Positions 1 to 61,800 of a stretch of DNA of 64,000 nucleotides are shown here, one piece after another. The notes beneath the pieces are model-generated. The model ran no database searches and had not been told where the DNA came from. It worked only from the letters and a program-made list of their open reading frames with translations. A program made the translations under genes and the position numbers. Each line of letters opens with the position of its first letter. Within the stretch, counting starts at the first letter, position 1. The stretch is from Amoebophrya sp. A120 (taxonomy: Eukaryota > Protista > Dinoflagellata): the NCBI GenBank assembly GCA_905178155.1, contig CAJINV010000004.1:6640933-6704932 (forward strand). Reading direction: 5' to 3'.

Positions 1-236
1 ACGTGTGTTGCAGAGCAGGCAAGTGAGGCCGATTGTAAGCCTGTTTGGGGTTACAGCTCGAGCTGCTAAAGTAGCATGAGAAAATCGCTCTTCTTTGCCT
101 AAACAGCATGACAGAGTGGATTTAGGGACCGCCGAAATTTGTCTTGCACCACTTCCAAACTGGGTTCCAACTGGCATCCATTTTATGCATGACAAATTAT
201 TTCAACTTTGTAGATTTCAACTCTGACACATCCATA
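1..236. mobile_element. Introner family C (partial, right end only)
   Basis: Ends ATTTCAACTTTGTAGATTTCAACTCTGACACATCCATA like 45232-45539; left end outside window. Confidence 0.85.
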
Positions 237-2441
237 ACAAAGTTGAGACCTACTTGTCGCTTCGCGTGCAGCTTGCGGATGCGGTCGCGCAGCACCGTCT
301 GCGCGACCTCCCGCCCGGCAGTCTGTACGCGTTTCCGGTGCGCAACTTCCGGGAGCTGGCGACCGCGCACCGGTTCGTGGAGCTCACCTCGGCGGCGAAG
401 GACTCGGTCGGATCGCACATGAACCCGGCCAAGGACGACCACGGCATGCAGGCCTTCGCGTGCTGGTTGACGCGGGCAGCGGAGGGAAAGGGCGGCTGCG
501 TGGTCGAACTGCGGGCCGAGGCCGAGAAGATGGAGGGGTACCTGAAAAACGGGCTGTCGGGGGCGGAACCGACCAAGGACTCGGTGCAGCTGCTCAAACT
601 GATCCACAACACTCTCGGGAAAAGAAGTCCGGTTGGTGCTACTGCTACAACAACTGCGCTACAAGCAAAATCCTCGGCTCCTGTTGCGCTCCTCTCGTCC
701 GAAGAAATCGAAAACGAGACCCCCGCCTTGTGGGCGCGAACCGCGTCGCACTTCTACCAAACGGCCAAGACCACGGACACGGACAAGGTATGCAAGAAAA
801 AAACTACGTGAGTGTAAATCTGTGATGCAGAAAGTGCAAAACTGTGACACTTGTCATGCTGTGTCTGCGTCATACGCTACTTTCATACGTGTTTCCACGT
901 ATAGCTGCGCATGACAGATTTTCCCTGCAATGCAACGCTAATTTGTGATGCTGCTCTTCCTACACAGTTATTCTTACACAGTTTTTTTCCTGGATACAAG
1001 GTGACGTCCCACCAGTACCACAACCTGTACGGCAAGTACCTCCCACAGAAGCTTTCCGATACTGTATTGTGAGGAAAAATCCCCCCTCCCCATATCGAAA
1101 GCGGAATTTGTGTTGCTGTATTTGAGTACACAAATCACATCTGTCTTGCTAGAGAGGACTGCAGACCCATATCAAGCCTGAGCGGAGATGCTTTGACTTA
1201 GGCGCTTAGCATGAGAAGCGTCCGTGATGCTGGCTCACCAGCATGACAAACCGCCTCCATAATGGGACGGAAGCTGCTGCCCTTGTCTTCTTGCAACACA
1301 AACGTGATTTGTGACCTCAAATCAGCAACAACGACGGCTGGCCTACGGATATTAGGTGGAAAACAGGCTCAAATCAGCAACACAAATTTTCGAAAACCTA
1401 CCTCTTCAATATGGGGAGGGGGGATTTTTCCTTGCGATATACTGCCAAAACCGCCAAGCCGCTGTTCGAGATCGGACTCGGGTGCAACATGGGGTACGGG
1501 CCGGGGGCCTCCGCGCAGCTCTGGCAAAAGCTCGGGTGGAAGGACGTGCACTTCATGGAGATGGACCGGGCCTGCCTGGAGAACTGGAAGGAGAAGGTCA
1601 CCCAGGGGGGCTACCAGGTGCACGTCGGCGACCAGGAGGCGAGCGCGGCGCTGGAGGAGGTCAAGGCCAACCTGGACTTCGAGGTGGAGGTGGTTGTGGA
1701 CGACGGCGGGCACTGGAACAAGCAAATTCTCACCTCCTTCTACACCCTGTGGCCGATCGTGCGCAACGGCGGGTTTTACTTCGTCGAGGACTGGGCGGAA
1801 GTTGCCTACTTATCCTGTGCAAAAGTATCGTAATCGTACTAATCGCCGTCTTGCATGACAGATCCAGCAAGTAAGGTAAACCAGCATTACAAATTGCATT
1901 TTTTCTCTTGAAAAAATTTGTCTTGCAATTTATACTAGTGCGATGCTTTTCCTTTTGCATTGCATACTACTACACCGGCTACTACGACGCCCCGAAAAAC
2001 GGCGTCGCGCGGCCGGGCGACGTATCAAATGCAAAAATGTCTGGGTCTGGAAACTTGTGATGCTGCGTTGGGATGAATAGGGAATGCTCTGCAATGCACA
2101 GCCAAGCATGAGAAATATCTGCGCTTCTTTGTGTTGCGCTTTTTGCACGACAAACTACGTTTTTGCATGACAGGCAAAAGGGTCTCTTCTTGGACACGCA
2201 TCGCAAACTTTTTGGTCATCCCAGACAAGCATGACAAATCTCGCAGTCTTCCAGACCCAGACACTTTTGCATTTGATACGACGAGAAACCGGGCACCTTC
2301 CAGTGGGAGATCGGCATGATGCTGCGCCACCTGTTCTGCAAACCGCTGAAGACGCCCTGCTACGGCAACTTTGCCTTCGTCGAGACGCAGTTCAGCCACG
2401 TGCTGTTTCGGAAGGGCGGGGAGGAGACGGAGGGGTTGTGA
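237..2441 (+). CDS. SAM-dependent methyltransferase-like protein (TDK..H.Y / EIGLG / DDGGH type), 5' part outside window; 5 introners
   Basis: Exons <242-788, 1002-1064, 1445-1810, 1972-2022, 2284-2441 join in frame after removing each element plus one TSD. Spliced protein reads TDTDKVTSHQYHNLYGKYL...LFEIGLGCNMGYGPGASAQLW...VHVGDQ...VVVDDGGHWNKQILTSFYTLWPIVRNGGFYFVED, typical of MycE-like class I methyltransferases. TGA at 2439-2441. Confidence 0.8.
789..996. mobile_element. Introner family I
   Basis: TIR TATGCAAGAAAAAAAC/GTTTTTTTCCTGGATA; TSD CAAGG/CAAGG; readable as GT-AG (788-1000). Confidence 0.88.
1065..1439. mobile_element. Introner family B
   Basis: TIR TATTGTGAGGAAAAATCCCCCCTCCCCATAT/ATATGGGGAGGGGGGATTTTTCCTTGCGATA; TSD TACTG/TACTG. 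Confidence 0.9.
1811..1966. mobile_element. Introner family D
   Basis: TIR TATCCTGTGCAAAAGTATCGTA/...TTTTGCATTGCATA; TSD CTACT/CTACT. Confidence 0.88.
2023..2278. mobile_element. Introner family A
   Basis: TIR TATCAAATGCAAAAATGTCTGGGTCTGGAA/TTCCAGACCCAGACACTTTTGCATTTGATA; TSD CGACG/CGACG. Confidence 0.93.
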
Positions 2442-3867: not shown

Positions 3868-6059
3868 ATGTCCTCCCCAACAACTCCCATCCCGCCGATG
3901 TTGAAGAGTGTAGCAGCCGGGAGGAGCACTTCCACCTCCTCCCGCAGCCTCCAGGATGCCATGCGAGAACTGTGTGACGCGGTAGCGAGCGAATTCCAGC
4001 TGGAGCCCGCCGCTGTGCGACGTCTCGCTGCCCTGGAGAAGCGGATCTCGAGCAACATGAATTTAGCTGCGCAGGGGGAAAACGGCGAGGACGAGGAGGA
4101 GGAGGAGGAAAATGAAACGAACAAAACCGAGTACGTGTCCGTCACGAACGTGGTCAAACTCCCGGAGGTATCAACTGCAAAAATGTCTGGGTCTGGAAAT
4201 TTGTAATGCTGCGTTGGGAAAAATAGTGAATGCTCTGTAATGCACAGGCAAGCACGAGAAATATCTGCGCTTCTTTGTGTTGCGTTTTTCGCATGACAAA
4301 CTGCGTTTTTGCATGACAGGCAAAAGGGTCTCTTCTTGGACACGCATCACAAACTTTTTGGTCATGCCAGACCAGCATGACAAATCTCAATCAAAATCTT
4401 CCAGACCCAGGCGCTTTTGCATTTGATAGCAGGGCAAGCAGCTGCAGGACCTCACCCTGGACGACCTCGCCAAGGCCATTCAGGACCGACGGGAAGAGCT
4501 TGCCCGGGCGAACAAGCTGCGTGGTGCGACGAGTGAGGACGTGCAGGAGCAAGACCTGCTTGCAGCTGAAGGCACCACTACGGAAGATAGCATGAAGGCC
4601 GTGCCGTTCCTGCTCCGCTTCTGTCTCGGAGAGTTTCACTACGGCCAGCGGGCGACGAAGATGTTGCCGGGGCAAAAGGAAATGCTGGGGCAGATGGGAA
4701 CAAATAACGGTAACCAGGCGAACGAAAATTATACTGGCTATGGCAGCTCAGCCGCTTCATCGCCAAACAACACGCCGATGGGAATAAATACTAGTAGTGG
4801 AGGAACTACAACAGCTGGCGGCGGACAGTTTCCAGGCGGCGGGGCAAAGAACAAAAACTCTACTAATGATAGCTCCTCCCTCAACCCCGACGCAGTCATA
4901 CAGCAGCCCAGTACGAGCCGCGTCACCACAGCCTCAACCTCTGAATTGGAAAAACAGGAATCTACGACGGTGCAGGAGTCGGAGCACTCCGACACCACAG
5001 TATCCACTTCCGCACCCAGCTCTGCAACGTCGACGCTCGGCGGTGCGAATCGTGGTGACAATACCAAGGCAGATGTGAAGACGGTGTTGCAGCAGCAGGT
5101 GAATCATGTTGATCCCGCGCCAGCTACTTCTAACCAAGAAATAAATACCACAGCTACAACAACTTCCTCCCATTCCGACGCGGTGTCCGCGGCTTTTGAC
5201 TGCCTCGCCCGGGAGGCGAAGTTCAGTCACTTGCACCAGGTGGCCGGGTGGGTGGATCTGGACGACAAGAAAATCTGGGATGACTACGTGATCGACACCA
5301 TGCAGGGCAAAGTCCTCCCCGGCGACCGGGTTTTTGAGGCGGGGTGCGGGGTGCTCGCTTTTTTGCGGTCCCTGCAGGAATCCGTGCCCGGGCCGGTTAC
5401 CATCGGTGGAGTGGACGGGGCGAAGAAGACCATCGAGTTGGTCCGCTCGGACTTGGCGCCGGTGGAGGACCGGGTATAAAGATTTATGATATCTTTATGT
5501 GAATAAAAATTTTGGTAACTGCTACGTACTGCACTGACACGACTTCGAATGCAATTTAGATTTGATCAACGCATGACAAACGGCTTCTCGTAACTAAGGG
5601 GGTTCTGCATCACAAAAAACATTCCGCACACACGACAACACATCAAAACTACAGGACAACTTTTCCGTCGGTCTCCTCCCGGATGCGCTGACGCAGTTTG
5701 AAGAAAACTCCTGGGACGTGGTGGTCTGCAACTCGGTGTTTCAGTACCTTGCCGACAAGGACCAGGCCAAGCGCGCGGTGGACAACATGCTCCGGATGGC
5801 CAGGAAGTGGGTCATCATTGCGGATGTACTGGATGCGAAGTACCACGACCAGTCGAACGCCAGGATTGCCCAGATGGAATGGACCAAGGGCGTCCCGGAG
5901 TACCGGTCCTATGAGAAGAAGTGGTGGGAAGACAACTTCGACTACATTGGGTCGGGGAATTTGGTTTCTATTCGCCATGTCGAGTGCCCGCACTACGCGC
6001 GGCGAAAGGAACGGTACGTCGTCTACATCGAGAAAAACGCGCCGGTGCTGGTGGCTTGA
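3868..6059 (+). CDS. Protein with C-terminal class I SAM-dependent methyltransferase domain (~581 aa)
   Basis: Exons 3868-4167, 4433-5473, 5655-6059 (1746 nt). Motifs RVFEAGCGVLAFL, GGVDG, WDVVVCNSVFQYL, WVIIADV. One introner and one GT-AG intron (5474-5654). Start codon is inferred. Confidence 0.78.
4169..4428. mobile_element. Introner family A
   Basis: Family A TIRs; TSD GGAGG/GCAGG; readable as GT-CAG (4168-4432); close copy of 2023-2278. Confidence 0.92.
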
Positions 6060-7880: not shown

Positions 7881-9078
7881 ATGGCCGCGACGACCCGTTG
7901 GGAGCAACAGCACGACCGCGACACGGGTCGCGAACCCTGCCCCGACCGCATCGTGGAAGACCTGGGGGGCGCGTTCGGCATGGGTTGCGTTGGCGGGTTT
8001 CTGTGGCACTTCGTCCGCGGGGCGCGGAACTCGCCGAAGGGGGAGCGGCTCGCCGGCGCGCTGTACCACGGGAAGTCGCGGGCGCCCATTCTGGGCGGCA
8101 ACTTCGCGGTGTGGGGTGGCTGTTTCGCGACCTGTGACTGCACCCTGCAGTACATTCGCCGGACCGACGACTCCTGGAACAGCATCATGTCCGGGTTCCT
8201 GACCGGCGGCATCCTCGCGGCCCGCGCGGGCTGGAAGCAGGCGGGCAAGAACGCGGTGGTGGGCGGAGTGATCCTCACCTGCATCGAGGGCGTGTCCGCG
8301 TTGCTGATGCGGTCCTACCAGAAGACCCCCCGGGAACAGGCCCTGGAGATGATCGAGTACGAGAAACAGTACGGACCGCCGCCGGGCACGCCGGGAGCAG
8401 AGGGTGGAGCAGCGGGAGGAGGTACCGGGATGAACATGGCCAGCATGATGTCGGGAATGTTCGGTGGGCAATCCGCCGCGGGGGGAGGTGAAAATAACGC
8501 AGCGGACGGTGGTGGTGAGCAGTCCTGGTTTTCCCAAGCGATCTATCGAATGCAAATATGTATGGGTCTGGAAGAATGCAAACTTCTCATGCATATTTTC
8601 CATGCCCCATGAGATTTGGAATACAGGACCTAGCATGACAGGTTCTGCGACGTCTCTATCATCCCTATCCTGCATGACAGACTGCCTCTAAACTTGTTCA
8701 AAAGAGGACAGCTTTTGGTAGTCATGCAACACAAATTTTTGTACGATCCAGAGAGACGTAGCACGACAAGTTCGTGTCCTCCCAGACCCAGACATATTTG
8801 CAATGCATACGATCAGCGGCGCCTCGTCTTCCAGTTCCAGCGACGGCAACATCAGTACTGGTGATGGAACTACTACCATGATGCCGGCAATGGACAACGG
8901 GATGCAAGCTTCAAGTGGTGCTTCTGCCTCCTCATCTTTCTTCCCCACCGAATCCTCCCTGTCCTTCGAGGGCGGCTTGATTCCAGAAGGGCTGAGCAGC
9001 GCCGGGGCGGCCGCCGCACACGACTCCACGACGTCGTCGAAGCCTTCCGGGTCCTGGTTCCGCTTGCCAAGACGGTGA
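7881..9078 (+). CDS. TIM17: Mitochondrial inner membrane translocase subunit Tim17 with long Gly/Ser-rich C-terminal tail (~308 aa)
   Basis: REPCPDRIVEDLGGAFGMGCVGGFLWHFVRGARNSPKGERL...RAPILGGNFAVWGGCFATCDCTLQYIRRTDDSWNSIMSGFLTGGILAARAG is the Tim17 signature. Exons 7881-8543 and 8815-9078. Confidence 0.93.
8544..8809. mobile_element. Introner family A
   Basis: Family A TIRs; TSD CGATC/CGATC; in Tim17. Confidence 0.92.
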
Positions 9079-10477: not shown

Positions 10478-13400
10478 ATGGCCACTTCCACACCGAATGT
10501 CAACGCACGGTGTCAGTCGCGCGGCTCCGCATTTGTGACCGGCGCTGCCGGTATTGTAAGGAAAAACCCCCCCTCCCCATGTTTGTGTTGCTGTATTTGA
10601 GTACACAAATCGACTTGTATTGCTCGAAGGCCAAGAGACGCAGTTGCCCCCTCGTTTGTTGGTAATTTGTCATTCTGTTTCCCGTTTCCAGTTGCTTCCT
10701 GTCATGCTGAAGACGCTAGGCTTTCCTACGCCAGCCAGCACTACAGTACGCATCTCTTTCCCCTCTAGCATGACAAAAGGATTTGTGGTCGCAAATCATG
10801 CTACACAAATCTCCGGTTTAGTATGGGGAGGGGGGATTTTTCCTTTTGATAGCCGGCCGTGCGACCCAGATGGTGCCGATGATGACCCGGCCGACGATAT
10901 CATATGTAAAAGCGTTCCCACCCCATAGTCAAGTTGGGAACTTGGCAACACAAATCCAGAAGTTTTGGGAGCCATGCATGACAAGTTGCCGTCCGTATTG
11001 TAGTGCAGGTTAGCAACGGAAACCGCATCACAAATCCATCTGCTCATCCTGTTTTCAGCATTACAAATATCAAAACACGATTCAAAATGCCTCTCTTGGG
11101 TCTGCGCATTACAAATGTTCCTGCAGTCGCAAATCTGCATGACAAGGACAACTCTGGGGTGGGGACGTTTTTACTCAGGATAGACGATGCTGCTGCAGCC
11201 CAGTGGCCACGCTCAAGAAGAGCACGACCGATTGCAAGACATAGCCGAGAGCGAGATCGACGGAATAAACGAGAACGCGGTCGCTTCTTCTAGCGGAGGA
11301 GACAACATGGTCGACGTGTATCATCAAGCACAGCACTCCGCCGGAGGTGTGAATCGAATTCGAAACAGTGTCGTTGAGCAGGTTGGAATCAGTGATTCGG
11401 ACGCCCAGGTGGACGAGAGTTCCAGCGATGAGGACTCTGACGAAGACGACTCTAGCAGTGGCAGCGGGACGTCATCCGACTCGGAAGAGGGGGAAGCTGA
11501 GGAACAGAACGCTAATTGTATCGGCGCAGAAGTAAAAAACCTAAACCTCCATAACCAGCCGGACGACCATGATCAGCACGAAAAAATTTACGAACATATT
11601 CACGCCGGCGCAAACACCCCGGAGCACAACGAGCGGCCCCGGAGCGCCAGTCCGCCGCCGGAGCGGACGCCGTATGGATTGCAAATATGTCTGGGTCTGG
11701 AAGATTCTGGGACTTGTCATGCACATTTTGCACGAGGCGGGATGTCTGTGATGCATGCCCTAGCATCTCAGTTTTTTTGAGGGCTTCTTGATGCCTATGA
11801 CGCATGACAAATACCCTCTCCGCGTAGAAAAAATTACGTTCCCTTTGCTGCTCATGCAATGCAGATTTTTTTGGAATCCCAATGCAGCATCACAAGTTGC
11901 AATCTCCCAGACCTAGACATATTTGCAATCCATACACCGGACTGTCCCACGATTCTCGCGGCCGCTCAAGAGGAGATCGACCGCGAAATGGCGGTATCAA
12001 ATGCAAATATGTCTGGGTCTGGAAAAGCGGAGCTTGTGTTGCGTGTCTACCATTCCTGAAAAATTTGTGTTGCATAACCAGCAAAAGCGTTGCATTTTTG
12101 TCATGCAAAGACGCAGTTTGTCTTTGTCATGCGTGCTACGCATCAGACGGCGTCAAATAAACTTGTCATGCTTGGCTGCACTTGAAAGCACCAGGTTTAT
12201 CCATACTTTAGCATCACAAGTTCTTTCCAGACCCAGACATAGTTGGATTTGATAGGCGGCCGTCGAGCAGGAGGTCGCCGCTCTGGTCGACCAGGAGTTT
12301 CTGATGCGGGAGACGGATATCAAATGTAAAAGTGTCTGGGTCTGGAAGAATGCAACTTGTGATGCTGCATTTGGATTCCAGAAAAATCTGTATTGCATGA
12401 GTACCAAAAGGAATGTAATTGTTGCTACGCGGAGAGGGCATTTGTCATGCGGAATAGGCATCAAGAAGCTCTCAAAAAATCTGTGATGCTAGGGCATGCA
12501 TCACAGACATCAGGGCTCATGCATAACGTGCATGACAAGTGTCAGAATCTTCCAGACCCAGACATTTTTACATTTGATAACGGAGCAGAAACTCGAATCG
12601 CCGCCGGAGCTGCAACCGCAGGTCCTTCTGGAGCCGCAGGTGTTGGGTGAGGGGCTGATGATCTTGGCCGAAAGTGGAACGGCGCAGCAGGACGGTGGAG
12701 GTGGGAACAATATTAAAACTGCGGGTTCTAGTACTACTGCTGCAGGAGACGAGACTAGAGCTAATGGCGCAGCAGGAGCCTCAGCGGCAGCGAACGCTGC
12801 AACGAACCATTTGTCGACGATCATGGAGACCAGCAGGTTATCGCAGTCCGAGAGCGGAACACCGGCTAGCAGCACCGTGAAGGCGCTGGCCGCCCGGTTC
12901 GAGGCCCGAAACCCGCAGACCACCGCCCTGGTGCGCGGACCGTCTTCAACTGCGTCGGGCGTTTCGGCGGCTACGGTGGGTGCGAGTGAGGCAGGGATGA
13001 ACAATAATGCCAGAGGTCCTCCTCGTGGGGCTGCAGCAATTATCCAGCCGCACTCGAAACCGGGAGCCACGATTCCCAATACCAGCGACGTGAGTATGGC
13101 GTTCTCAGCTGTTACATTCTCAAGTCTTACATGAATTTGTGACGCTAGAATGGTAACAGTCAAAGGGGCAAGGTTTCTGCTTTCGCATCACAGCTTTGGC
13201 ACAGATTTCGATGCTGTTTAGCCTCTCGGAGATTTGTCATGCGAAGCAGCTTGATCATCTCGCGGCCTAAGGTAGTCTTGCATGGCAAACTTATGTGACA
13301 GTTGAAAATGTAACATTTGAGAACTCCATAGTGAAGACGCCGGTGGTTCCGCCGCGCACCGTCGGAGGCCGGGCGACCACGCCGGAGGTGAAGGGGCGAA

Positions 13401-28800: not shown

Positions 28801-30227
28801 ACGACACCGACCGGAAGAATTGGTTGCGGACCTGCTGTATGCATTGCAAAAGTATTGTAGTTCTAGTACTACTTCTACTTGCAGTTATGCATGACAAATC
28901 TAAGTTGCTACCTGAACTACCATGACAAATTGAGTTTTTGTTCTTGGGAAAAGTTGTGATGCAATTCATACTAGTACGATGCTTTTTCTATTGCATATGC
29001 TGCAATCTGCTCAATTTGGAGTGCTTCCGCATGTTGGACGCGTTTGAAGAAGATTTTTACGATGTGGAGAAAGCGCTCGAAAAGATCGTCGGCAGTGACA
29101 ATTATAACTGTGCGATCAGTACGTGTACGAGTACTGCTAGTCCTCCCGGTTCCACTCCTTTTGAACCAGCTACGAGGAGAGCTACAACCAGCAATGGCGG
29201 TCGTTATCATGCGGATAGTACAACAAGTTCTAGTACCTGCAAAAATCGCAGTTCAAGCTCGACCTCTCCAAGGGCAACATCTTCGCCGCTTGACATCGGC
29301 AAGAACAAGCAACCAGCCACGACAACAAGAACTCCTCGCGCTTTACAAATCAGCGCGGAGGTGCCGCTCGTCCTCCTCGATTTGCGCAATTTGCTGGTCG
29401 TGGCAGCGTGCATTCTGGATGTGCGGCGCGACGTGGTTTCCCCATCGATAGGCATCTTCGAGTCGGTCGGTGATTTGCTGTATGACGATAGGAAATACCT
29501 AAGCCAAAATCACGACGTTTGCGAGTACCACGCGAGACTGGTGCCGCTTTTGGAGCAAACACCTCTATATGATGCTAGTTTCGAAGATGCGGAACCGGAA
29601 GGAGGACTACAGAGGGAAATCAGAAAATCGCCAACGGATAGTTATACTAGTACGACCACAACGGGGCTGGGGCTGCAGCAGGGGAGCGATCAGAACTACG
29701 TCAAAAAAGAGAATCATCATGCAGAGGAACCTCCACTAGCACTACCACTGCCGGACGTGTCACTCTTAGCCAGCACTCTGATGACGAAAAACCTCAATGA
29801 TTTGGAGCAAGTGGACGTCGAAGGAAGCTACGACCTCGGCTTTGCAGGTGGTTCAACATCTCCGTATCACCACGAAGCCCCACAACTGCTGTTCCACGCT
29901 GCTGGTAGCGGGACGACAACTGCTGCTAGACGGGCTAGAGTCCTATCGTCTGCGAACGCCATCGCCCCGGTTGTGTCGCAAGGTAAGCTCCGCTACCTCC
30001 TCACCAGAACGCGTGCAAGGTTGAAACGAGTGGGAAAGCTTGAGAAGGCGCTGTATGCGCGGTTGAGCGCGCCAGAATACGTGGTGCCAAACGAAAGTTT
30101 GGAAAAAAAAATTACGCACGGATTTTCCCTAGCGCATTTTTATCAGAAGGACGGAATCGACACTAGTGGAACAAAGAACGGCTTCTATGATCGTTCTACT
30201 TCGCAAAACAGAACAAATGGAAAATAA
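25830..30227 (+). CDS. Hypothetical protein (~1306 aa), 3 introners
   Basis: Exons 25830-27690, 27853-28192, 28343-28837, 29003-30227 (3921 nt, in frame). No family motif recognised. Confidence 0.65.
27691..27847. mobile_element. Introner family D
   Basis: TATGCATTGCAAAA/TTTTGCACATGATA; TSD GACCG/AACCG. Confidence 0.85.
28193..28337. mobile_element. Probable decayed introner / non-canonical intron
   Basis: G-TAT...ATA ends retained, TIR and TSD (AGGCG/CGCGG) eroded; removing element plus 5 nt joins ORFs 27897 and 28272 in frame. Confidence 0.55.
28838..28997. mobile_element. Introner family D
   Basis: TATGCATTGCAAAAGTATTGTA/TACGATGCTTTTTCTATTGCATA; TSD TGCTG/TGCTG. Confidence 0.88.
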
Positions 30228-46500: not shown

Positions 46501-49500
46501 AGTTCCGCACCATGAACAGCGACGGGTGGGTATCACACAGAAAAAAGCTAGCAGGGCATATTTGTAATGCAAAAATAAATACACAAAAAATGCATATCCG
46601 AAACAGCATGCTATGGGGCCACCCATAGCAAATTTTTTTGTGTACTTATTTTTGCATTACAAATATGCCCTGTCAGCTTTTTTGTTTTTCTCTGGGATAG
46701 TCGGTCTTCGAACCGGATTACTACGCGGCCTGCCGGTATGGAAGCGTCAGGTTTGAAATCGACAAAGCTGAAATGATTTGTCATGCATAAAATGCAAGGC
46801 ATGAAGCGCCTGTCTTGCCGGGATGGCAAGCGAGGCCGACCGTCAGCCTGTTTAGGGTTTGAAATAGAGCTGCTAAAGTGGCATGACAACAGCAGTCGCT
46901 TGTGCCCAAACAGCATGACAAATTGGATTCCGGTGCTCGGAAAATTTGTCATGCACCGCTTGGAAATTGGGCTTCCAGTTCCAACTGGCATCGATTTTGT
47001 GCATTACAAGTTATTTCAACTTTGACGATTTCAATCCTGACGCTTCCATAGCCGGTTCTTGCTGGGGGAACAAGCCCCGCGGGAGGAGATGGACGTGTGT
47101 TCGCGGGACGAACTGTACATGTACCGGGCGATTGCGCGCCGCGTGTTGAAGGTGCAGCCGGACGTTTTACACGTGATTCTGGAGAAGTACATCTTGTCCT
47201 CGGAAAACCTGAAGCAGTACCGGTTTGTATTACAGTGAAAAGTGCCCCCCACCCCTAAATTGCAGAAATTTGTAATGCGAAGTTTCCAAATGAAAACTTT
47301 TTGCCATGCATGAAAGGAGTGTGAATCTTTCTGATGCAGAATGTAGGCGCGTATCGCATCGCTTGCATGACAAGTGCCGCTCTTGCTGGGGTCTTTTGCA
47401 ATACAAACTTTTGCTATTCACGATTGAAAACCTGTGACGCTGATAGATGCAAGAGGGCGAGTGTTTCATTTGGAAAGGTTTGCAATACAAATGCTCCCAA
47501 GTTCGGGGGTGGAGGCATTTTTCATTGTAATAGTTTGCAGACTTGGTGAACAAGCAGGTGGGACGAGATTTTACTACTGCAACTCAGCAGGATCATCATG
47601 TCGTGGGGCAGCAGAAGCAACATCAGGAGAGTGGTGATAGGATGTTGATGGCCGCCAAGAACGTGGTCGGTGTAGCTGGTCGTGTAGCATCCTCAAGAAC
47701 AGAGGGTGGTACACTTTCTACAACCGCAGAAGTACAAGTGTCCTCGAACTATAACGATTTCCATTCCTGGGTGGGGGTCTTGGAAGAAGCTGGAACTACT
47801 ACCGACGACGCGCACCACGAAGAAGACCCGTCTTTCGTGGTGGACACGAAAAGTAGTAGAACAGGCGGGATTTCATCTACGACAACAGAGCTGCAAGGCG
47901 ATGTTGACCAAATTTTCCAAGACGCCGTGGTGCTGCGTCCGTTCGCCGGGATGCATATTCGATCAACGGACAACGTTGGCCGCTTTCGGCACGGGGTTTG
48001 CCACTACGCCGACAAGCTGGAGCTGATGATGCGATTTTACTCTCCGGATCGAAAGGAAAGGGAGCGGTTGCTGAAGACGCCCGGCGGGTGGCACAACAGC
48101 CTGGAACGGCTGTATGAGGACGGAAGTATAAACTTGCACTTAATTTATTTTTTTGGGCTCTTGTGATGTAGAAAAGAACGAGGAATTCAGACTCGCTTCT
48201 CAGTCTGCATTGACTGACGTCACTTGTTCGGAGTACCGTTAAAAGTAGTTTGATCGATCATGGTCGAAAACTTGAGAAGCTTCTATGAGCTTATGCCAAA
48301 TAATTCTAAAAGTAAATGTTCAAGTAAAACAGTATCTATTTCTCCAGATCTGAACCCGTATTCCATGCACGTGAAGAAGAAGAAGGAGTTCAGCATGACG
48401 GAATTGCTGGAGGGCCGCTACAAGGGCGAATCGGATTACGAAGATTTGCAGCATAAGGAACTGAAGGCGCGTAACAAGGTCGCTTCCGTAATGGACGACA
48501 CCACGTCCGAGGTGGACCGCTTGCGCAATTTGCGCGAATTCCGAAGTACACACAAGGAAAAGACGTTGAACAGGGCTGAGCAGCAAGACGGGGGTGCAGC
48601 ACACGATACTACAACTACAGCCGAGAGAACTTCTGAAGACGAAGTACAAGAAAAACCACCTGAAGCGGAGCAGGAAGAAGAAAACGACGACGAGGAGCTC
48701 GAGGAGAGGGTGTATTTCGACAAGAGTAGCAACTCTACCACAACTTGGCAGCTGCCGACGAAGATCCGGACCGTCTTTGTGGCGACCGACAACTGCACAA
48801 AGCTCGTGGATTTCCAAATATGCTCCAGAAAAAGACCGACAGGTCATATTTGTAATGCAAAAATAAATAGACAAAAAAATCTGTATTGCATGCCCTAAAC
48901 AGGATGCTATGGCCTCGCCCATGACAGATTTTCCTGTGTATTTATTTTTGCATTACAAATATGCCCTGCCTGCTTTTTTCTGTGGGATACCAAAACTGTG
49001 ATGCGTACAAGAGGAACAGATGGACGCTCGCGTCGTTTTGTCGACGGGAAGATGGTCCTCGTGGTGAGCTTTCTGGGGGTCGCGATCAAGAAGATCGTGC
49101 AAGTGATACAACAACTCAAACGAACAGAGGTACGACTAAGGCAGCGGTAATATCCGACAGTGCGGTGTTCTTTCAGGGGCACCAGAACGATCAGGACCGA
49201 CGAGGAGGGCTCCCACCAGAAGTGGCAGGGGAAAATAAAGGACCACACGAGCAGGACCAACATCAGAGCAGTACCAGACCTGCCGAGCAGCAACCGCACA
49301 ACGCCGACAGTACAACTTCTAGTGCGTCGACGGAGTTGGTTGACCAGCTGGTGAGCGGCGAAGTGGATTTATCCGAGGCAGAAAACATCCTATCAAATGC
49401 AAATATGTCTGGGTCTGGAAGAATGCAAGTTTGTCATGCTTGTCTGACATGACTCGAGTAGAGTCTGTGTTGCATAGGCACGAAAAGGCCCTCTTACCTG

Positions 49501-52878: not shown

Positions 52879-55800
52879 ATGCTGCCCCCGGTCCGGCACC
52901 GCACCCAGATGGGGGACATTTTGTCCTGGGCTGGCGGACGCGCGGAAAGCCCGTCAAACCCTGCCAACTACAACCCCGCGGCTGCGCCACAAATACTAGC
53001 GCCGATGAACCAGAACCAGCCCCAGGTGGTCGGCATGCCGCCCCAGTTCGCGTTCAACCAGAATAACAATAAACCCAGCTACCCGAACAGCTTCTCCAAC
53101 CCCAATCCCAACCGCGATCTGAATCCACAAAACAACCGACTGCAGCAAATTGTACCCGCCACACAAGGTGCTGGAAATGTGCTGAACAACCGGCAGCAGC
53201 TGCAACCAGTTCCACCACCGAACCCGCCGTCCGGTGGAGGAGGGCCAGACAGAGGTCCAGAGCAGAACAGGAATATTAACTACCCGCAAATCCAGCAAAA
53301 CGCGGACTTTCTCGCTAAGCCCTTTTCCGAGGACAACCAGCAACTAAGCCACGACCTCGCCGTGCAGAACACGGGCCTGCAAAACCAGATCTTCTCGCTG
53401 GAGCGGGTGTGCCGCCTGCTGACCGACCGCGTGACGTTCCTGGAAAACAAAGCGAGTAATATCCTGTGCAAAAGTATCGTACTCGTATTGCAAAGATGCA
53501 TTACAAATCCTTTTCTTAAGGTCAGTCCGCATTACAAATTTTATTTCTCATGCTGAGGAAATTTGTAATGCATTTATACGACGAGTGGGTGCGATACTTT
53601 TGCAGTTCATAAGTAACGTCAGCCAGCAACTCGACGAGCGGGCACGGACAGACGCGGAGATCCTTATGCATTGCAAATATGTCTGGGTCTGGAAGATGGC
53701 AACTTGTAATGCTGTCTCAGGATGCTAAAAAAATTTGTATTGCATGACCAGCAGAAGGAGTCCAGTTTGTGCTACGCGGGGAGGGAATTTCTCATGCGGA
53801 ATATGCGTCGGGAAGCCCTCTGCAAATCTGTGATGCTAGAGCATGCATTACAGGCATCATGGGTCATGCACAATATACATGACAAACCTGGCTGCAATCT
53901 TCCAGACCCAGATGACATGTTTGCATTTGATAATCCTGCGCAAGGTGCAACTACAGGTCCGAGACATTCAGGAAGGGCAGAGTGGCTTCGTCAAAGACGT
54001 GGCTGGTATGCTTATTGTAGTATACCGTCACGCATGACAAAACATCTTTTCTATTTTGAAATAACTATAACTTCTCCAAATCGCAACTTTTCTGTTCGCT
54101 AAAATTTCTGTGATGCGTTTTCTAGTTGTTGTAGGTCTACGTGTACTTGTACGCTAGTTTTCGCAAAAATGCCTACTAGAAGTCTACGTTACAACTTACC
54201 AGTTTCGCGCACAACAACATACAAATAAACCCTACAACAGGGAAGCTCACCCAGCACGAAGAGCAGAACGTGCGATCGGAGAGGGACCAGGCTGCTGTGC
54301 GCGAATCTGTCCGGGGGTTACAGAATGACTTTCGCGATTTCGCCGTGCAGTCTGTCTACCGTCAGCGCCAGGAGACAGAACAGTTGATAAAAAACCAATT
54401 CGCAAAACACCAGTTTCAGGTATGATACTTTGATGTAGAGTAGCTCTTGTAGAAGTGCAGTACTAGAAGTACTTACCGCATGCTACTAACTTCGCAGCTG
54501 TAGTTGTCGTCGATCATATTGAGCAATGAAGGCGACCTCGAAGATCATGGTGCTTTTGGCACTTGCGTTGCCGTGGATGATGAGTTGCATCTTTCGAGAT
54601 GATTTCCATGATCGCCAGGATGCTTACCGCGACAGTCGCGTGTTAAGTACGTTCTACGGTTCAATTCCAATTCTATTCCCAGGAAAACGACGCCCGCGCG
54701 GAGCTGAAGCGGCAGCAAGAGGAGCTCGCGGAGGGTATAAGCCGGGTCAACAACACGCTGGAGGATTTGGACACCAATGCGGCTGCGTTTAAGCAAGACG
54801 CCCGGGCTATCAAATGTAAAAATGTCTGGGTCTGGAAACTTGTGATGCTGGGCGCCGTCTCATGAGGAAGCGACAAATGCTGGCTCAGCATGACAAGTTT
54901 CTGAGCTCCTAGGTGTTGCCTATTCTGCATGACAAACTGCGCTTTTGCATCACAGAAAAACGGAGCTCTTGGGTAACGTGCATGACAGATCTAAGAGTCA
55001 TGCCAGACAAGCATGACAAACATGAATTCTTCCAGACCCAGACATTTTTACAATCCATACGGGCGCGGATCGTGAATCTCGAAAACGCGATTCTCTGCAA
55101 GGAAGGCGATGTCGGGGAGTATCAAATGCAAATATATCTGGGTCTGGACAAATGCAACTTGTGATGCTAGCTTTGGATCCTAAAAGAGTCTGTCTTGCAT
55201 GAGCAGCAAGAGGAGACCATTTTTCGCTACGTGGAGAGGGCGTTTCTCATGCGGAATAGGCATGAAGACGCCCTCAAAAAACCTGTGATGCTGGGGCATG
55301 AATCACAGACATCAAGGGTCATGCAAAAAGGGCATGACAAACCTCGCATCCTTCCAGACCCAGACATATTTGCAATGCATAGGGAGAGCGGCGAGCCGAA
55401 ACTCGGCGGCTTCGCCTTCCGAGAACACGTGGAGCAGTTGCGAGTACTTATTTGTTTTCACAACTAGGGTGCTACATGTACATTTTCATATCCGTTGTAC
55501 ATCGTGATCGTGTTCGTGGCCCTCGTCCTCGTCACGTCGTTGGGTTATTTATCTTTGCAGTCAATCTTCATCTTCTTGCCATGTTCTTGGAGTAGACCTT
55601 GGTCTTGCAATGCAGAGCGATAGACCTCCTCATTGGCCTGGATGTGTGTGGTGGCATATCATTTTTCTACATTGAAATGCTTTATCCCTCAACAACTTTC
55701 CTTCTAGGCTCAAGTCGCGCAAATGGCGAAGGACTTCACAGAGAACGTGATCGAGAACGAAAACGAAAAGAAGATTCGCAATGTATCAAATGGAAAAATC

Positions 55801-58800
55801 TTCCCTCCCCATATCAAAACGAAATTTCTGATGCTGGATTTGGATACACAAATCAAATTTGTATTGCAGTAGAGAAATACACGCAGATCCTGAGCCGAGG
55901 TGGGGGCCTTTTGGTGTAGGCGCCTAACATGGCAGACGGCTACCCTGTAGGCCTTACAGCATTACAAATCGCCTGCATGACGTGGCGGACAGCCTGAGCG
56001 TGCCTTCTTGCAAGACAGACCCGATGCGTGGTCACAAATCAGCAACGCAAGTTTTCGGAAGCATACCTTTTCGATATGGGGAGGGGGGATTTTGCCTTAC
56101 GATGCAACGCCGTGATTCGGGAGTACGAAGAGAAAATTGCGAATCTGAACACGGACCTCTCGCAGCAGAAGCAGGAACTGTTAACCCTGTTCGAGTATCA
56201 AATGTAAAAGTGTCCGGGTCTGGAAGATTTTGAGATTTGTCATGCTTGTCTGGAATGACCAAAAAGTTTTTGACGCGTGTCCAAGAAGAGACCCTTTGTT
56301 CTTTTGCCTGTCATGCAAAAACGCAGTTTGTCATGCGAAAAACGCAACACAACGAAGCGCAGATATTTCTCATGCTTGTCTGTGCATGACATCAGAGCAT
56401 TCACTATTCCTAACGCAGCATTACAAGTTTCCAGACCCAGACATTTTTGCAGTTGATATCGAGCAGCGCCAGGAGGTGATGCAGTCGAAGATAGAGATAT
56501 CCTGTGTAAAAACGTCCCCACGACCCCATAGTCAAGTTGGGAAATCTGCAAGACAAATCGACACGCTTTGGCTATTACGCATGACAGGATTTTTGGCCTC
56601 GTAGCCTAGGCCTGTGTGGCTAGTGCAGTAGCGTCACAGATCTAGCTTATTATGCTGATTCAAGCATCACAAATTCCGAATACACACAGCTAGAAAATGC
56701 TTCGCATGGTGCTCCGCATGAGAAACATTTTCAGCATGCCGATTTGCATGACAACTTCTATGGGGTGGAGACTCGTTTTTACATAGGATAAGAGATGGAA
56801 AAGCACGAGATTCTCGCCAAGCAGGCCGAGATGCGAGAGGAGCTGCAAGGCGTGGACAGTCTGAACGCGGTTTCGATTTCGGACATTGAGTTGAAAACCA
56901 TGAACAACTTGGACCTGTTCAAAAAACGGGAGGAGGCCGAGCGAGACGCCTTGCGCCAGGTCGTGGACTCGAAACTGAATCAGGTGAATTTCTTGTGATG
57001 CGGATTGACGGATTTACAAAAGGAAATTGCACACCAGCGACTACTACTTTAACCTAGCTTCAAGTTCAAACCGCATTTCTTAAATCCACCTTGGTATACT
57101 TGCACAAGAAGAGAAGTCATGGGCTTATGCGAAGAAAGTTGAAATATCCACCACAGGTTGTCGGGCAAATCGCGCGAACAGAGACGCTGCGACAAGACGG
57201 GCTGACGGTCTTGTACGAGAAAATAGACGATTTTCAGAACAAGCAGCTCGAGACTGTGAAGGAAATCCGGGGGGAAGTGCACGAGAACATACGCGACGTC
57301 CAGGTAAGATTTTTTGTGGTGATCTGTAATGCCGAACGTGCATGAGGACACTGTATCTGTAATGCCGAACGTGCATCAGGACACTCTTTTTTCCGCGTTG
57401 TACTCGCCGTGCGCATGGCAAAATTAATAATAAATCGATTGCTCACCCCCTTTTTACCTTCCCGCAAAATCAGACTCTGTTCAAGGACGAGATGCGACAC
57501 CGCATGGAGACGGAGCGAAAAATGACGGAGTCCGTGCGGGAAGTAGTGAAGAACCTGTCCCAGTCGCAGGCCACGGCTTTCGAGCAGCTGTCCGACCGGA
57601 TCCGGTATCAAATGCAAAAATGTCTGGGGCTGGAAGGTTCTGAGACTTGTCATGCAGATTTTGCATGACCCAGGATGTCTGTAATGCGCGCCCTCGCATC
57701 ACAGGTTTTTAGAGGGCTTCCTGATGCCTACTCCGCATGACAAACGCCCTCCCCGCGTAGCACAAACTAGACTCCTCCTGCTGGTCATGCAATACAGATT
57801 TTTTTGGAGTCCAGAGTTAGCATCACAAGCTCCAACCTTCCAGACCCAGACACTTTTGCGATTGATATACGGCTGCTGTCCGAGACGCTGGGCGAGTCCC
57901 GCAAGGAGTCTTCCGAGCGCGCGGAGCGCATGTCGCGGTATGTGGACGAGGTCGTCGCGAAGTGGCGGCTGGACTACGGACGCCAGTGCGAGCTCCACGA
58001 TACGCAGATGCTCCAGCTGGAGGCGAAGCTGAAGGACCTGTTCGAAACGGTGGAACGGACGAGAAACATATCAAATACAAATATGTCTGGGTCCTCTGGA
58101 AGACTGCTGGACTTGTCATGCAGGTTTTCCATGACCCATCTCATTTGCAATGGAGGATCTAGCATGACAGATTCCGCGAGATCCCTATCATGCTTATATA
58201 TAATCCTGCACGAGAAACTGCCTCTCCACTTGATCAACAAAAGTGGACAGCATTTATTTTATGGTAATGATGCAACACAGATTTTTGTATGATTCAGATT
58301 TAGCATGACAAGTTGCAGAGTCCCAGTCCCAGACATATTTGCAATGCATAAAACACGCTGGACGACAAGATTACCAGTTCAAAGAACCACGTGCTGGAAA
58401 AGCAGGACCAGGCGTCGAACCACTGGCAGGAGCAGCTACTCGTGCAGTCGAAGCGGTTCGAGGAGCGGCAGTACAAGCAGGAGCAGTACACGAAGCAGGA
58501 ATTCGACCACATGAAGCAGAAAACGGACCGACAGAATATGACCCGCTCAAACGTTACAATCTCAAACGTTACAGTAGAATATGAAAATGTGCAGTGCAAG
58601 AGTGCATGATCTAGCCTACTCCCACAGGATTGCGCATGACAAGTTCTCGAGTCCCAAACCGCACTAGGATCTGCCGAAATTTGTATTGCATGCAGAAAGT
58701 GGAGGAGCGCTGGCGCTCTGCGAGTCTGTCATGCGCGTCATGCAATACAAAATCCAGATTCTATTGTAACGTTTGAGATTGTAACACCTGACCGGGTTAT

Positions 58801-61800
58801 ACAGAACTCCGAGTTCGACGAGGCGATTGCTGGCGTGCATCGGGCCATCCTGGGGCTGTCGAAGGATAAAAGTCTGATCGGGGCGAACATTGTGGTGCCA
58901 CTACCCTTATCCTGCCGTGCAAAAGGCGTGTCGGAATTCTGGTTTGTTGTTGAAAGAGAACTACAGCGTGACAAACGTGTTATTCGTCCACCGACCGGAT
59001 TCGGCATGACAAAATGTTTGTGTGTTGTTTTTGCTCCTCCGCCTAAATAGAACTAGAAGTTGTCGTTCAAAAATGAAAATCGCTACTAGTAGATAACGAT
59101 ACAACTTTTGCAATGATCCATATCCTTCCTGGGACCAGATGGACAGCGCGCGGAGCCGGCAGAGTTCAGAACTGCCTTACGGGCCAAAGAAGGGACTGCA
59201 ACCCGACGCGCAACTACAACACGGAACCGGGGCGGCCACAAGCGGTGGCGGGGCGCAGCCGAGCTTCATCAAGTCAAATTTTCACATTCCAGCGATCGAC
59301 AGCAGTCCGGCCAGCGAAGATCTTCCGGACAAGGAGCGGGGAGGCAGGGGAGAGCAGCAGCAGTTTGGGCAGTTGCTGTACCCCGGTGGTAGTGGAGCAA
59401 GCGGGACGAACAACAACGCAGGCGGCGGCGTATGCATTGCAAAAGTATCGTACTAGTAAGTGAAATTGCATTACAAATTAGCTCAGCACGATCAGAAATG
59501 CAATTTGTCATGCTGATCCAACTTAACAACTGGAATTGTAATGCATAACTGCAATTAGAAGTACGAGTGCGATACTTTTGCACAGGATACAGTGCGTCAA
59601 GTTCAAATGGATTTGGCGGGGGAGACACGTTGCAGCTCTCGAATACCTATCAAATACAAATATGTCTGGCTCTGGAGAAATGCAAAGTTTGTCATGTATG
59701 TTTCGCATGCCCCAGCCCCAGGAGAATGGCTGCTCAGCATGAGAAGCAATCCTCTCTCAGCGTCATCTCCAAAAATGAAAGGTTTTGCTGCTCACGCATG
59801 ACAGATTTTTGTGTAGCTGAAAAAGAGCATCACAAGTTTATTGCACCTTTTCAGACAACATCCAGGGATATTTGCACTGGATCACACATTTGAAAACTTG
59901 GAAATTCCGCGCGACCAACTGTCCCCGTTTGGGACGGGCGGGAAGAACACGCCGCCGGACGAAGAAGCAGCTGGTGCCGGCGAAGGGAGCAGTAACACTG
60001 CCGACGGTGGATTAAGTGGTGGTCCTCCAGCACCTTCAGCACCAGGTGCCGGGAATAATACGAATTCTGGGACAACGAGCGTGGAAGCGGGAGCGAGTAG
60101 TGGCGGGATGCTGACGCAGAAATCCAGCAGCGCAAATCCAGCGTCGCAGAACAAACAACTGCTCTTAGACCAGGACAGCGACCCGAGTTTGACCGACCTG
60201 AGCCACTACTTGCTATCAACTGCAAATATGTCTGGGTCTGGAAAGACTGGAACTTGGAATGCTGTCTTTCGATTCTAAAAAAATCTGCATTGCATGACCA
60301 GCAAGAGAAGTCGAGTGCGTGCTACGCGGAGAGGGTATTTTTCATGCGGAATAGGCATCAGGAAGCCCTCTCAAGATCTGTGATGCTAGGGCATGCATTA
60401 CAGGCGTCGCGGGTCATGCAAAGTATGCATGACAGACCTGGTAACCTTCCAGACCCAGACATGTTTGCATTTCATACCTGCACGACTTCAACAACAAAAA
60501 CGGGGACCCGCAGCCGCAGAAGAAATCCACCATCGCGCAGGAGGCGGGCGTATCAAATGTAAAAATGTCTGAGTCTGGAAGAATGCGCGATTTGTCATGC
60601 AGCTTTTCCATGACCCATGAGGTCTGGAATGCAGGACTTAGCATGACAGTTTCTGTGCAATCTTTCTCATGCCTATCCTGCATGAGAAACTGCCTCCCGA
60701 CTTGGTCAAAACTGGACGGCTTTTGGCAATCATGCAACACAGATTTTTGCATGCTTCAGATTTAGCATGACAAGTTGCATTCTTCCAGACCCAGACATTT
60801 TTACATTTGATAGGGCGCCTTGGACCGGCCGTTGCGGCCCGAGGACGACGGGAATACGCCAAACAACCGCGAGGATTTTTTAGTGGAGAACGGGGACGGC
60901 ATACTGGACAAAAAGGAGGATCCGCAGGAGGGCGCGCACGAGCGCCAGGCGCAGCTTTCCGGGGACGAGAACGTGATATTATTAAACACTGCGCCTGCAG
61001 CTGCATCCTCACAACATCACCCAGAAATAACCGCACCGGATGGTGACCCTTCTGTGGAGAAAAACAACAGTTTGCAGGTCGTCTCGCTGCCGTCTTCTGG
61101 GTCGTCCGGAGATCATGGGAACACCGCCGCGGGGCAGCAATCCACGTCGCAGATCTTGGAGCAATCCGCCGTGACGGAGCAAGATGTTTCGCTTCTGACG
61201 GTGAAGAGCGCAAACTTGCCGGGTTTCGGGCCTTCCTCCCTCGACGGGCCCATTCTGGAGGGCCAGCACGAGAACGCGCAGCCACTGAGCGCGCGGGCAG
61301 ACGAAAATACAGATTCGGTGGTGGTGGCCGAGCCGGTTGATGTAGAAGTTCTTGGGCAGAAGAACCGAATAGAAGACGTCGCGCAGGCGCCGGAAGCAGC
61401 AGATAATCCTGGTCCAGTAACAATACCACAGCCCGGCGGCGCAAGTAGCAGCTCTGTCGTGCCAGTACTAGGCGAAGATGTTGCAGCCACCAAGACGGTC
61501 GAAGTAGAAGCAGGGGAAAGGAGCGATCCCGCTCCAGCTGCATCAGCGTCCTCAGCCGACGCAGTAAGCAAAGCGGAAGCTGCTGTGCCTTCTAGTACGA
61601 TAGCCAACGGTCTGGCTCAACTTCCACATGAACAAGAAGCGGCGACGACGCCGAAGGAAATTATAGCGCGGGAACAACTACCCGGTGAAGTAGTAGATCC
61701 TGCCGCCAAGACACCCCCGGGCGAAACCGCCTCTCCCGATCTGCAGAACAACAGCCTGCAGGCGACGGACAAGATGCTGCAGCCGTTGATGTCACCCACG

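What the first reader, a model, noticed from the sequence alone, without database searches (positions are those of the whole stretch)
1..60812. About 58 TIR/TSD-bearing mini-transposons behaving as non-canonical introns (introner invasion)
Seen: 58 insertions of 145-375 nt, in about 10 TIR families (A 26, D 8, B 4, C 4, E 4, F 3, G 3, I 2, H 1, J 1, plus 2 decayed), nearly all TAT...ATA and flanked by a 5-bp direct repeat. All interrupt + strand coding sequence. Deleting the element plus exactly one repeat copy restores the frame at every junction, including within conserved motifs (FUT8-like CFF|QPASKC at 46323; methyltransferase TDK|VTSHQY at 789). Established: introners are known, and inverted-repeat non-canonical introns have been reported in Amoebophrya, with the excision mechanism unresolved to my knowledge. 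Inference: these are non-autonomous DNA transposons precisely removed from pre-mRNA, which makes exon insertion nearly neutral.
Basis: partly seen in the sequence, partly recalled or inferred. Interest (0 to 1): 0.95.

Follow-up and report, generated by a model that had tools for sequence, protein, structure and literature searches.

The report
Known Amoebophrya introners, likely branch adenosine
These are the already published mini-transposon introns of the plankton parasite Amoebophrya A120, which transcript assemblies lack exactly although most carry no normal splice signals; the added detail is a likely single cut position and two preferentially conserved bases that would act as a minimal splice signal for a relaxed spliceosome.

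Summary
Observation confirmed: 55 complete TAT...ATA elements plus one cut by the window start, 149-375 nt, 40 of 55 with an exact 5-bp repeat, all in + strand coding DNA. Two database proteins match the window and are named Amoebophrya sp. A120, so these are the introner elements published by Farhat et al. 2021. Transcript-like contigs of one sample skip element+5 nt at 10 of 10 elements laid, none at GT-AG; 33 of 55 junctions have RNA or protein support. Imperfect repeats leave one common cut: 1 nt before TAT, 4 nt after ATA. This scan found the phenomenon and this cut before on other A120 DNA. Not found in my searches: the symmetric ends decay asymmetrically along the transcript. Intron +2 U changed 0 times against 10 for its mirror; the A at -7 changed once against 12 for its mirror (p 0.003, post hoc, weaker with noisier strand calls). 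Best model: a U1-less spliceosome guided by the end hairpin, branching at -7 A. Known system; the lariat prediction is testable.

The parts
1..236 (.). 3' part of an element of family E, cut by the window start
   Evidence: self-BLAST; sequence
789..996 (.). element family I, repeat CAAGG; GT-AG at inferred cut
1065..1439 (.). element family B, repeat TACTG
1811..1966 (.). element family D, repeat CTACT
2023..2278 (.). element family A, repeat CGACG
4169..4428 (.). element family A, GGAGG/GCAGG; GT-AG at inferred cut
5474..5654 (+). inferred GT-AG intron with two copies of the element motif; possible old element
   Evidence: no RNA check
8544..8809 (.). element family A, CGATC, in a Tim17-family gene
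10552..10851 (.). element family B, GCCGG
   Evidence: junction in P0003
10898..11182 (.). element family C, GACGA
11673..11934 (.). element family A, CGCCG/CACCG
11995..12254 (.). element family A, GGCGG
12318..12579 (.). element family A, ACGGA
13095..13330 (.). element without BLAST partner, GTGAG/GTGAA; database protein excludes a cut at the element edge
16598..16881 (.). element family C, CGAAA
17859..18122 (.). element family A, CTCCG
18185..18437 (.). element family A, GGAGA; starts TAC
18575..18750 (.). element family D, TCAAG/CCAGC; GT-AG at inferred cut; protein excludes a cut at the element edge
20212..20465 (.). element family A, GAAGA
20954..21120 (.). element family F, AGAGT/AGAAT; starts TAC
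21443..21650 (.). element family I, CCAAG
27691..27847 (.). element family D, GACCG/AACCG
28838..28997 (.). element family D, TGCTG
32337..32595 (.). element family A, ACCCG, nucleotide-sugar-transporter-like gene
33835..34114 (.). element family C, CGTGC/CGTCC
34152..34467 (.). element family E, AGTTC
35272..35487 (.). single element, AGACG
36115..36376 (.). element family A, CCTTT
36495..36748 (.). element family G, ACGAG/ACTAG
36812..37075 (.). element family A, AAAGG; ends ATT; GT-AG at inferred cut
41863..42117 (.). element family A, ACACA; ends ATG
42158..42424 (.). element family A, GGATG
43756..44080 (.). element family B, CGCAC
   Evidence: P0001 reproduced
44874..45113 (.). element family A, GCTCG
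45232..45539 (.). element family E, ATATC
45582..45843 (.). element family A, CTCGG
46323..46471 (.). element family D, CTTCC (CFF|QPASKC junction)
46531..46699 (.). element family F, GTGGG/GTCGG
46737..47050 (.). element family E, GCCGG
47228..47532 (.). single element, GTTTG
48819..48989 (.). element family F, CCAAA
49391..49636 (.). element family A, CATCC
53460..53611 (.). element family D, AGTAA
53665..53932 (.). element family A, ATCCT
54006..54240 (+). inferred GT-AG intron with two copies of the element motif; possible old element
   Evidence: no RNA check
54808..55059 (.). element family A, CGGGC
55120..55381 (.). element family A, GGGAG
55784..56104 (.). element family B, CAATG/CAACG; skipped 326 nt; 4-5 left repeat bases kept; GT..AC
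56196..56458 (.). element family A, TCGAG; skipped 268 nt
56498..56790 (.). element family C, AGAGA; skipped 298 nt
56984..57156 (+). GT-AG intron with one element motif, skipped in the same contig
57304..57473 (+). GT-AG intron with two element motifs, skipped in the same contig
57606..57867 (.). element family A, TCCGG/TACGG; skipped 267 nt; 2-5 left bases kept
58069..58350 (.). element family A, AAACA; skipped 287 nt
58537..58801 (.). element family G, CAGAA; skipped 270 nt
58908..59122 (.). decayed element with D-like ends, ACCCT/TCCTT; skipped 220 nt; 4-5 left bases kept; TT..CT
59431..59589 (.). element family D, CGGCG/CAGTG; skipped 164 nt; 4-5 left bases kept; GT..GT
59648..59883 (.). 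decayed family A element, ATACC/ACACA, ends ATC; skipped 241 nt; 2-4 left bases kept; CT..AC
60214..60476 (.). element family A, CTTGC/CCTGC; skipped 268 nt; opposite orientation to 57606
60551..60812 (.). element family A, GGGCG

Best explanation
The inserts are the published introner elements of Amoebophrya sp. A120: short inverted-repeat elements with a 5-bp flanking repeat, likely non-autonomous DNA transposons, that are missing (element plus 5 nt) from transcript-like contigs and are likely removed from pre-mRNA by a relaxed spliceosome. Shown: both orientations are removed, without GT-AG at the 10 junctions read. Inferred: the cut is always 1 nt before TAT and 4 nt after ATA, so the intron reads N-UAU...AUA-NNNN. 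The predicted end hairpin would bring the ends together in place of U1 (reported undetected in this strain). The U at +2 would be the remnant of the 5' splice site and the first A of the closing AUA, 7 nt before the 3' cut, would be the branch point. Because TAT...ATA is palindromic it would supply both bases in either orientation, and because one repeat copy leaves with the intron the protein is restored. The internal motif GCATnA[C/G]A, facing inward 33-46 nt from both ends in unrelated families, likely binds a shared, unidentified transposase.
For: Identity: exon 48994-49389 is 100% identical to an A120 protein that is reproduced at 1189 of 1189 residues after removing 10 elements+5 nt and one GT-AG intron; Farhat section 11 gives A120 IR families as TAT + 7 variable + at least 3 A, with 3-5 nt direct repeats. 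RNA: 10 of 10 elements in 55690-60545 skipped at element+5 in one contig in runs X3 and X5, together with 2 GT-AG introns; 7 more fit by contig spacing (149 and 258 nt). Register: three junctions need at least 4 left repeat bases, one needs at most 4; the database protein P0003 excludes 5 at 13095 and 18575; GT-AG is possible only in this register, 4 of 55; all nine predominant A120 non-canonical motifs in Farhat Table S4 have T second. Asymmetry: codon-oriented set, +2 U changed 0 vs mirror 8, -7 A changed 0 vs mirror 11; after review of all 24 variant elements, 0 vs 10 (p 0.002) and 1 vs 12 (p 0.003). Folding: z below -2 in 54 of 55, ends paired in 47 of 55. Motif: 197 copies against 3.4 in shuffles, in 55 of 55. 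Nearly all spliceosome proteins and U2, U4, U5, U6 are reported for A120.
Against: No lariat or other intermediate was seen; contigs cannot show one. All RNA evidence is one sample whose RNA status is the tool's guess; only one RNA junction excludes a cut at the element edge, and the two protein junctions rest on an annotation. One element (L110) has G at -7, one (L055) cannot be oriented; counted against, p is 0.013. With noisier strand calls the -7 asymmetry is 4 vs 2 and 6 vs 1, not significant. The test is post hoc. The bases before the -7 A show no shift toward a U2-pairing branch sequence, and that A lies inside the predicted stem. The +2 asymmetry also fits plain pairing (A-to-G keeps a U-G pair). 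No excess of G-U over A-C pairs (42 vs 30, p 0.19) and no sense-strand folding advantage, so selection on the RNA hairpin is not shown. No transposase found in the window or in 128 loci; Farhat found none in A120.
Confidence: 0.6

Rival explanations
1. Same elements and same cut, but removed without the spliceosome: a structure-guided nuclease and ligase cut at fixed distances from the hairpin, as proposed for euglenid nonconventional introns.
For: Strong end pairing; +1 base free (AT 78, GT 76, CT 69, TT 42 of 265); acceptor dinucleotide nearly free; U1 reported undetected; euglenid introns pair +4..+6 with -8..-6 and leave as circles (PMC11282704 passages).
Against: The only register that fits all junctions is the one giving GT-AG where the repeat allows it; +2 U and -7 A are conserved by strand, and U-to-C at +4, which breaks the stem, is tolerated while A-to-G at -7, which keeps a U-G pair, is rare; a slight AG excess at the 3' end (21 vs mirror 9, p 0.04).
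Confidence: 0.22
2. Spliceosomal removal, but with the ends marked by a protein (a transposase or its domesticated RNA-binding part) on the GCATnA[C/G]A motif or the TIR, and with the -7 A read by that protein, not used as branch point.
For: The motif is in 55 of 55 elements at fixed distances from the ends and in 4 of 13 GT-AG introns, all 4 with A at -7 against 2 of the other 9 (p 0.02); no evidence of selection on RNA pairing.
Against: The motif is arranged symmetrically, as DNA-binding sites of a transposase would be; 58908 has one copy, far from the end, and is still removed. No such protein was identified.
Confidence: 0.14
3. The elements are not introns: the genes are broken, or the elements are cut out of DNA, or nearby GT-AG sites are used.
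For: Two RNA runs of 2026 with the same species label barely lay on the stretch (34 and 4 reads), so no raw junction read was seen; 1797 joints were not shown, so rare DNA excision is not excluded.
Against: DNA-like run X1 has contigs that run from unique flanks into the elements with 0 differences; X3 and X5 lack both canonical introns and elements in one contig, at non-GT-AG ends; long reading frames and database proteins are restored.
Confidence: 0.02

Closest known systems
Introner elements (IEs) among the non-canonical introns of Amoebophrya sp. A120 (Farhat et al. 2021, PMC7789003; seen: abstract, passages, sections 11, 12, 16, supplement legends and Tables S4-S6; figures not seen)
   Same: Same organism by protein identity; IR starting TAT + 7 variable bases + A run; 3-5 nt direct repeats over the boundaries; about 240-260 nt; many families; hairpins; RNA-supported; no transposase inside.
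   Different: Nothing in kind. The paper calls splice sites variable relative to the hairpin and the border unknown (Fig. 3 legend) and has no mention of a branch point, lariat or subterminal motif in its main text; here one register, a strand-asymmetric +2 U / -7 A pattern and a shared internal motif are described.
A120 introner families classed as TIR DNA transposons (Gozashti et al. 2025, PMC12130899; seen: passages, supplement legends, 21 of 58 A120 rows of a dataset; files 13-14 not searched)
   Same: TIR elements of 150-340 nt in A120 genes with mostly non-canonical ends; 58 families listed.
   Different: Their rows give mixed splice ends and TSD lengths of 2-5; I could not map my families to theirs. 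Their family 38 has an ORF with Copia/Gypsy homology, a possible mobiliser not tested here.
Micromonas and Aureococcus introners (MITE-derived; PMC11282704 and PMC9860276, passages)
   Same: Non-autonomous TIR elements with TSD that become introns on insertion and favour genes.
   Different: Those carry or co-opt canonical splice sites; here 51 of 55 have no GT-AG in any register inside the repeat.
Euglenid nonconventional introns (PMC11282704, passages)
   Same: TIR-based stem joining the ends, TSD-like repeats, non-canonical junctions.
   Different: Stem at +4..+6 / -8..-6 and circular, non-lariat products there; here the stem starts at +2 / -5 and products are unknown.
Fixed-distance branch points of Entamoeba invadens, diplomonads, parabasalids and some yeasts (10.1101/2022.06.08.495308, passages)
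   Same: A branch A at a set short distance (-8 in E. invadens) from the 3' splice site.
   Different: Those keep GT-AG and a full AYURAY motif; here only a single A is conserved and its role is inferred.

Membership tests
Amoebophrya A120 introner elements | located in the A120 genome | tested here: met
   window exons match proteins named A120 at 99-100%
Amoebophrya A120 introner elements | IR starting TAT, 7 variable bases, then 3 or more A | tested here: met
   end matrix against Farhat section 11
Amoebophrya A120 introner elements | 3-5 nt direct repeat over the exon/intron boundary | tested here: met
   5 bp, exact in 40 of 55; cut falls inside it
Amoebophrya A120 introner elements | repeated families | tested here: met
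   BLAST clusters; about 310-356 further elements in 128 loci of another assembly
Amoebophrya A120 introner elements | absent from transcripts at non-GT-AG ends | tested here: met
   10 of 10 laid, one sample
Non-autonomous TIR DNA transposon (MITE) | TIR, TSD of constant length, short, no ORF, either orientation | tested here: met
Non-autonomous TIR DNA transposon (MITE) | cognate autonomous element or transposase | tested here: inconclusive
   none in the window or 128 loci, which is a small sample; no genome held
Non-autonomous TIR DNA transposon (MITE) | empty orthologous site with a single 5-mer in a relative's DNA | not testable with these tools
   no locus overlaps the window; a distant homologue is collinear in protein across two junctions only
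Canonical U2 GT-AG intron | GT...AG ends | tested here: not met
   4 of 55 at best; 0 of the 10 RNA-read element junctions
Spliceosomal intron (mechanism) | lariat with a branch adenosine | not testable with these tools
   only indirect: -7 A conserved by strand, one exception
Euglenid-type nonconventional intron | stem at +4..+6/-8..-6 with CAG/CTG; circular non-lariat product | tested here: not met
   stem geometry and end sequence differ; the product was not testable

The most novel reading that the evidence does not exclude
Amoebophrya A120 runs a spliceosome whose sequence demand has shrunk to one U at +2 and one branch A at -7, both supplied in either orientation by the palindromic TAT...ATA transposon end and placed by the end hairpin, so that any insertion of these elements is at once a frame-restoring intron with free donor and acceptor bases.
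Probability: 0.45. Interest if true: 0.78.

Novelty: already known. Interest (0 to 1): 0.45.

Why it matters
The elements and their non-canonical splicing are in print for this genome, so the finding is not a discovery. How they are removed is open (PMC7789003, PMC11282704). A fixed cut and a candidate branch adenosine turn that question into one experiment: look for lariats branched 7 nt before the 3' cut. If present, this would be a spliceosome that needs neither G at +1 nor AG, which bears on how transposons found introns in bulk.

Tried and rejected
No whole genome is held. No RNA holder was on record; X3-X6 are guessed RNA. Raw RNA runs X9, X10 hardly lay on the stretch: uninformative; X4 and X6 did not cover the gene laid. 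The DNA-like run swamped the joint table. G excess at intron +1 in the window (29 of 55, p 0.0007) did not replicate in the loci (76 of 288, mirror 83): rejected. G-U versus A-C test and sense versus antisense folding: no signal. Mutations in imperfect repeats show no clear drift to GT or AG in the loci. 'FUT8-like': no Pfam or PDB support. Rfam: 0 matches in the window. Three viral 18-mer matches are chance-level, with no element around them. A 2459-nt candidate long element in L032 is not one: element homology only at one end, ORF without Pfam family. L020 dropped from the asymmetry count (both ends changed, likely a false call); 46 of 311 elements were left unoriented. Literature: 5 searches; 'Amoebophrya' + 'branch point' gave one preprint, on Entamoeba. 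Roy et al. 2023 (Curr Biol) was not seen, and the figures of Farhat 2021 (Fig. 3, S19-S25) could not be viewed; either may show the register or the motif.

Full report
Observation. A scan for inverted ends flanked by 5-bp direct repeats, self-BLAST and an end matrix gave 55 complete elements and one cut by the window start. They are 149-375 nt, 44% GC; 49 of 55 read TAT...ATA; 40 of 55 have an exact 5-bp repeat. A strict rule finds 37 in the window and none in 30 shuffles. All lie in + strand genes, none in about 16.5 kb that I judge intergenic (P 2.5e-10 if uniform); gene-biased insertion is a known introner trait (PMC9860276 passages). Removing element+5 nt gives far longer open frames than +3, +4, +6 or +7.

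Identity. The exon 48994-49389 is identical to part of a protein named Amoebophrya sp. A120. Removing ten elements+5 nt and one GT-AG intron reproduces all 1189 residues. A second A120 protein of 2547 aa contains all 13 element junctions of 10478-22342. Farhat et al. 2021 (PMC7789003) describe this system: over 60% non-canonical introns, A120 inverted repeats that start TAT, then seven variable bases and a run of A, 3-5 nt direct repeats, 29,850 repeated introns, U1 undetected, no transposase. Gozashti et al. 2025 class most of the A120 family rows that I saw as TIR DNA elements. The finding is therefore known. Earlier notes of this scan report the same on at least eight other A120 pieces, several with the same fixed cut, and two with a shared motif; I read them after my own tests and do not count them as support.

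RNA. Eleven runs were listed, none on record as RNA among the holders. On 41500-61400, run X1 behaved as DNA, with contigs crossing from unique flanks into elements without differences; run X3 gave one contig whose piece spacings (149 and 258 nt) equal removal of seven elements+5 nt. The raw RNA runs X9 and X10 hardly lay there. On 55690-60545, X3 and X5 each gave one contig that skips 10 of 10 elements at exactly element+5 nt and two GT-AG introns; X4 and X6 did not cover the gene; all four are one sample. With the proteins, 33 of 55 junctions have support. Copies in opposite orientations (57606 and 60214; 45232 and 46737; 46323 and 59431) are all removed.

The cut. Where the two repeat copies differ, the transcript shows which bases stay. 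55784, 58908 and 59431 need at least four left bases; 59648 allows at most four; 57606 and 60214 need at least two. P0003 excludes five at 13095 and 18575, though that rests on an annotation. One register fits all: the intron is N-TAT...ATA-NNNN, with ends such as GT..AC, TT..CT, GT..GT and CT..AC. That a single register holds everywhere is an inference. Farhat's Table S4 already implies it, since all nine predominant A120 motifs have T second, although the text calls the border variable or unknown.

A strand asymmetry. An exact search for a family A end gave 128 loci (388 kb) from one other assembly, none overlapping the window. With a detector that does not penalise single changes in TAT (42 of 42 calls correct in the window; strand right in 39 of 42), 265 of 311 elements could be oriented. 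The base at +1 is free (AT 78, GT 76, CT 69, TT 42), so the G excess in the window did not replicate. A transposase constraint would be symmetric, but the ends are not: pooled with the window, +2 U changed 0 times against 8 for its mirror, and the A at -7 changed 0 times against 11 for its mirror. Two cruder strand calls kept the direction but lost significance (4 vs 2 and 6 vs 1 at -7). Reviewing all 24 variant elements among 325 gave 0 vs 10 at +2 (one likely false call dropped) and 1 vs 12 at -7, with L110 a real exception and L055 unresolved; p is 0.002 and 0.003, or 0.013 with L055 counted against. Position 2 of the TIR is symmetric (2 vs 3). The -7 pattern runs against plain hairpin selection: stem-breaking changes at +4 are tolerated while the wobble-keeping A-to-G at -7 is rare. 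The test is post hoc and the numbers are small. I found no mention of it in the main text of Farhat, in a paper search or in earlier notes.

Structure and motif. 54 of 55 elements fold better than shuffles (median z -7.6) and 47 of 55 pair their ends in register, as any TIR element would; G-U excess and sense-strand advantage are not significant. The motif GCATnA[C/G]A, defined from these elements, occurs 197 times against 3.4 in shuffles, in all 55, mostly facing inward at 33-46 nt from the ends in unrelated families. This fits binding sites of one shared transposase (inference). It also occurs in 4 of 13 GT-AG introns, all four with A at -7 against 2 of the other 9 (p 0.02), which suggests old elements that became canonical. 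No autonomous element was found.

Mechanism. Shown: presence in DNA, absence from transcript-like contigs with one repeat copy, both orientations, non-GT-AG ends. Inferred: transposition with a 5-bp duplication; a single register; removal by the U2-type spliceosome, reported nearly complete except U1, with the hairpin joining the ends, +2 U as donor remnant and -7 A as branch point (0.6). Fixed short branch distances are known in Entamoeba invadens and others. Against: the A sits in the predicted stem, its context lacks a U2-pairing motif, and one exception exists. Rivals: a euglenid-like non-spliceosomal route (0.22), protein-marked ends (0.14), not introns (0.02).

Verdict. The value lies in the fixed cut, partly implicit in print and noted before in this scan, and in the branch-adenosine prediction, which one lariat experiment can settle. 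Interest 0.45.

Noticed in passing
window 38850-40130: A 71% GC island inside a 3.7-kb stretch without a clear gene (other intergenic DNA 43% GC); no Rfam match. Unexplained.
   Followed up: partly
window 5474-5654, 54006-54240, 56984-57156, 57304-57473: GT-AG introns that carry the elements' internal motif and A at -7; possibly old elements turned canonical.
   Followed up: partly
window 18575-18750 and 13095-13330: At these imperfect repeats the intronic copies differ from the exonic bases toward G at +1 (both) and AG at the 3' end (18575); no such trend in the larger set of loci.
   Followed up: partly
whole window: All genes found lie on the + strand and cumulative GC skew rises steadily, in line with the co-oriented gene blocks reported for Amoebophrya.
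   Followed up: no
window 7881-9075, 31902-37207, 1444-1809, 5598-6056: Pfam names: Tim17 family, nucleotide-sugar/UAA transporter, two methyltransferase domains.
   Followed up: yes
L110 355-616 (minus strand): Family A element ending GTA, the one exception to the conserved -7 A, in what looks like a conserved gene (likeness to a TRAPP subunit is recalled, not confirmed).
   Followed up: partly
window 57305-57380: A short tandem duplication of about 33 nt inside a GT-AG intron, each copy with the element motif.
   Followed up: no
L018 1088-1591: A 504-nt element call, about twice the usual length; may be nested or compound.
   Followed up: no
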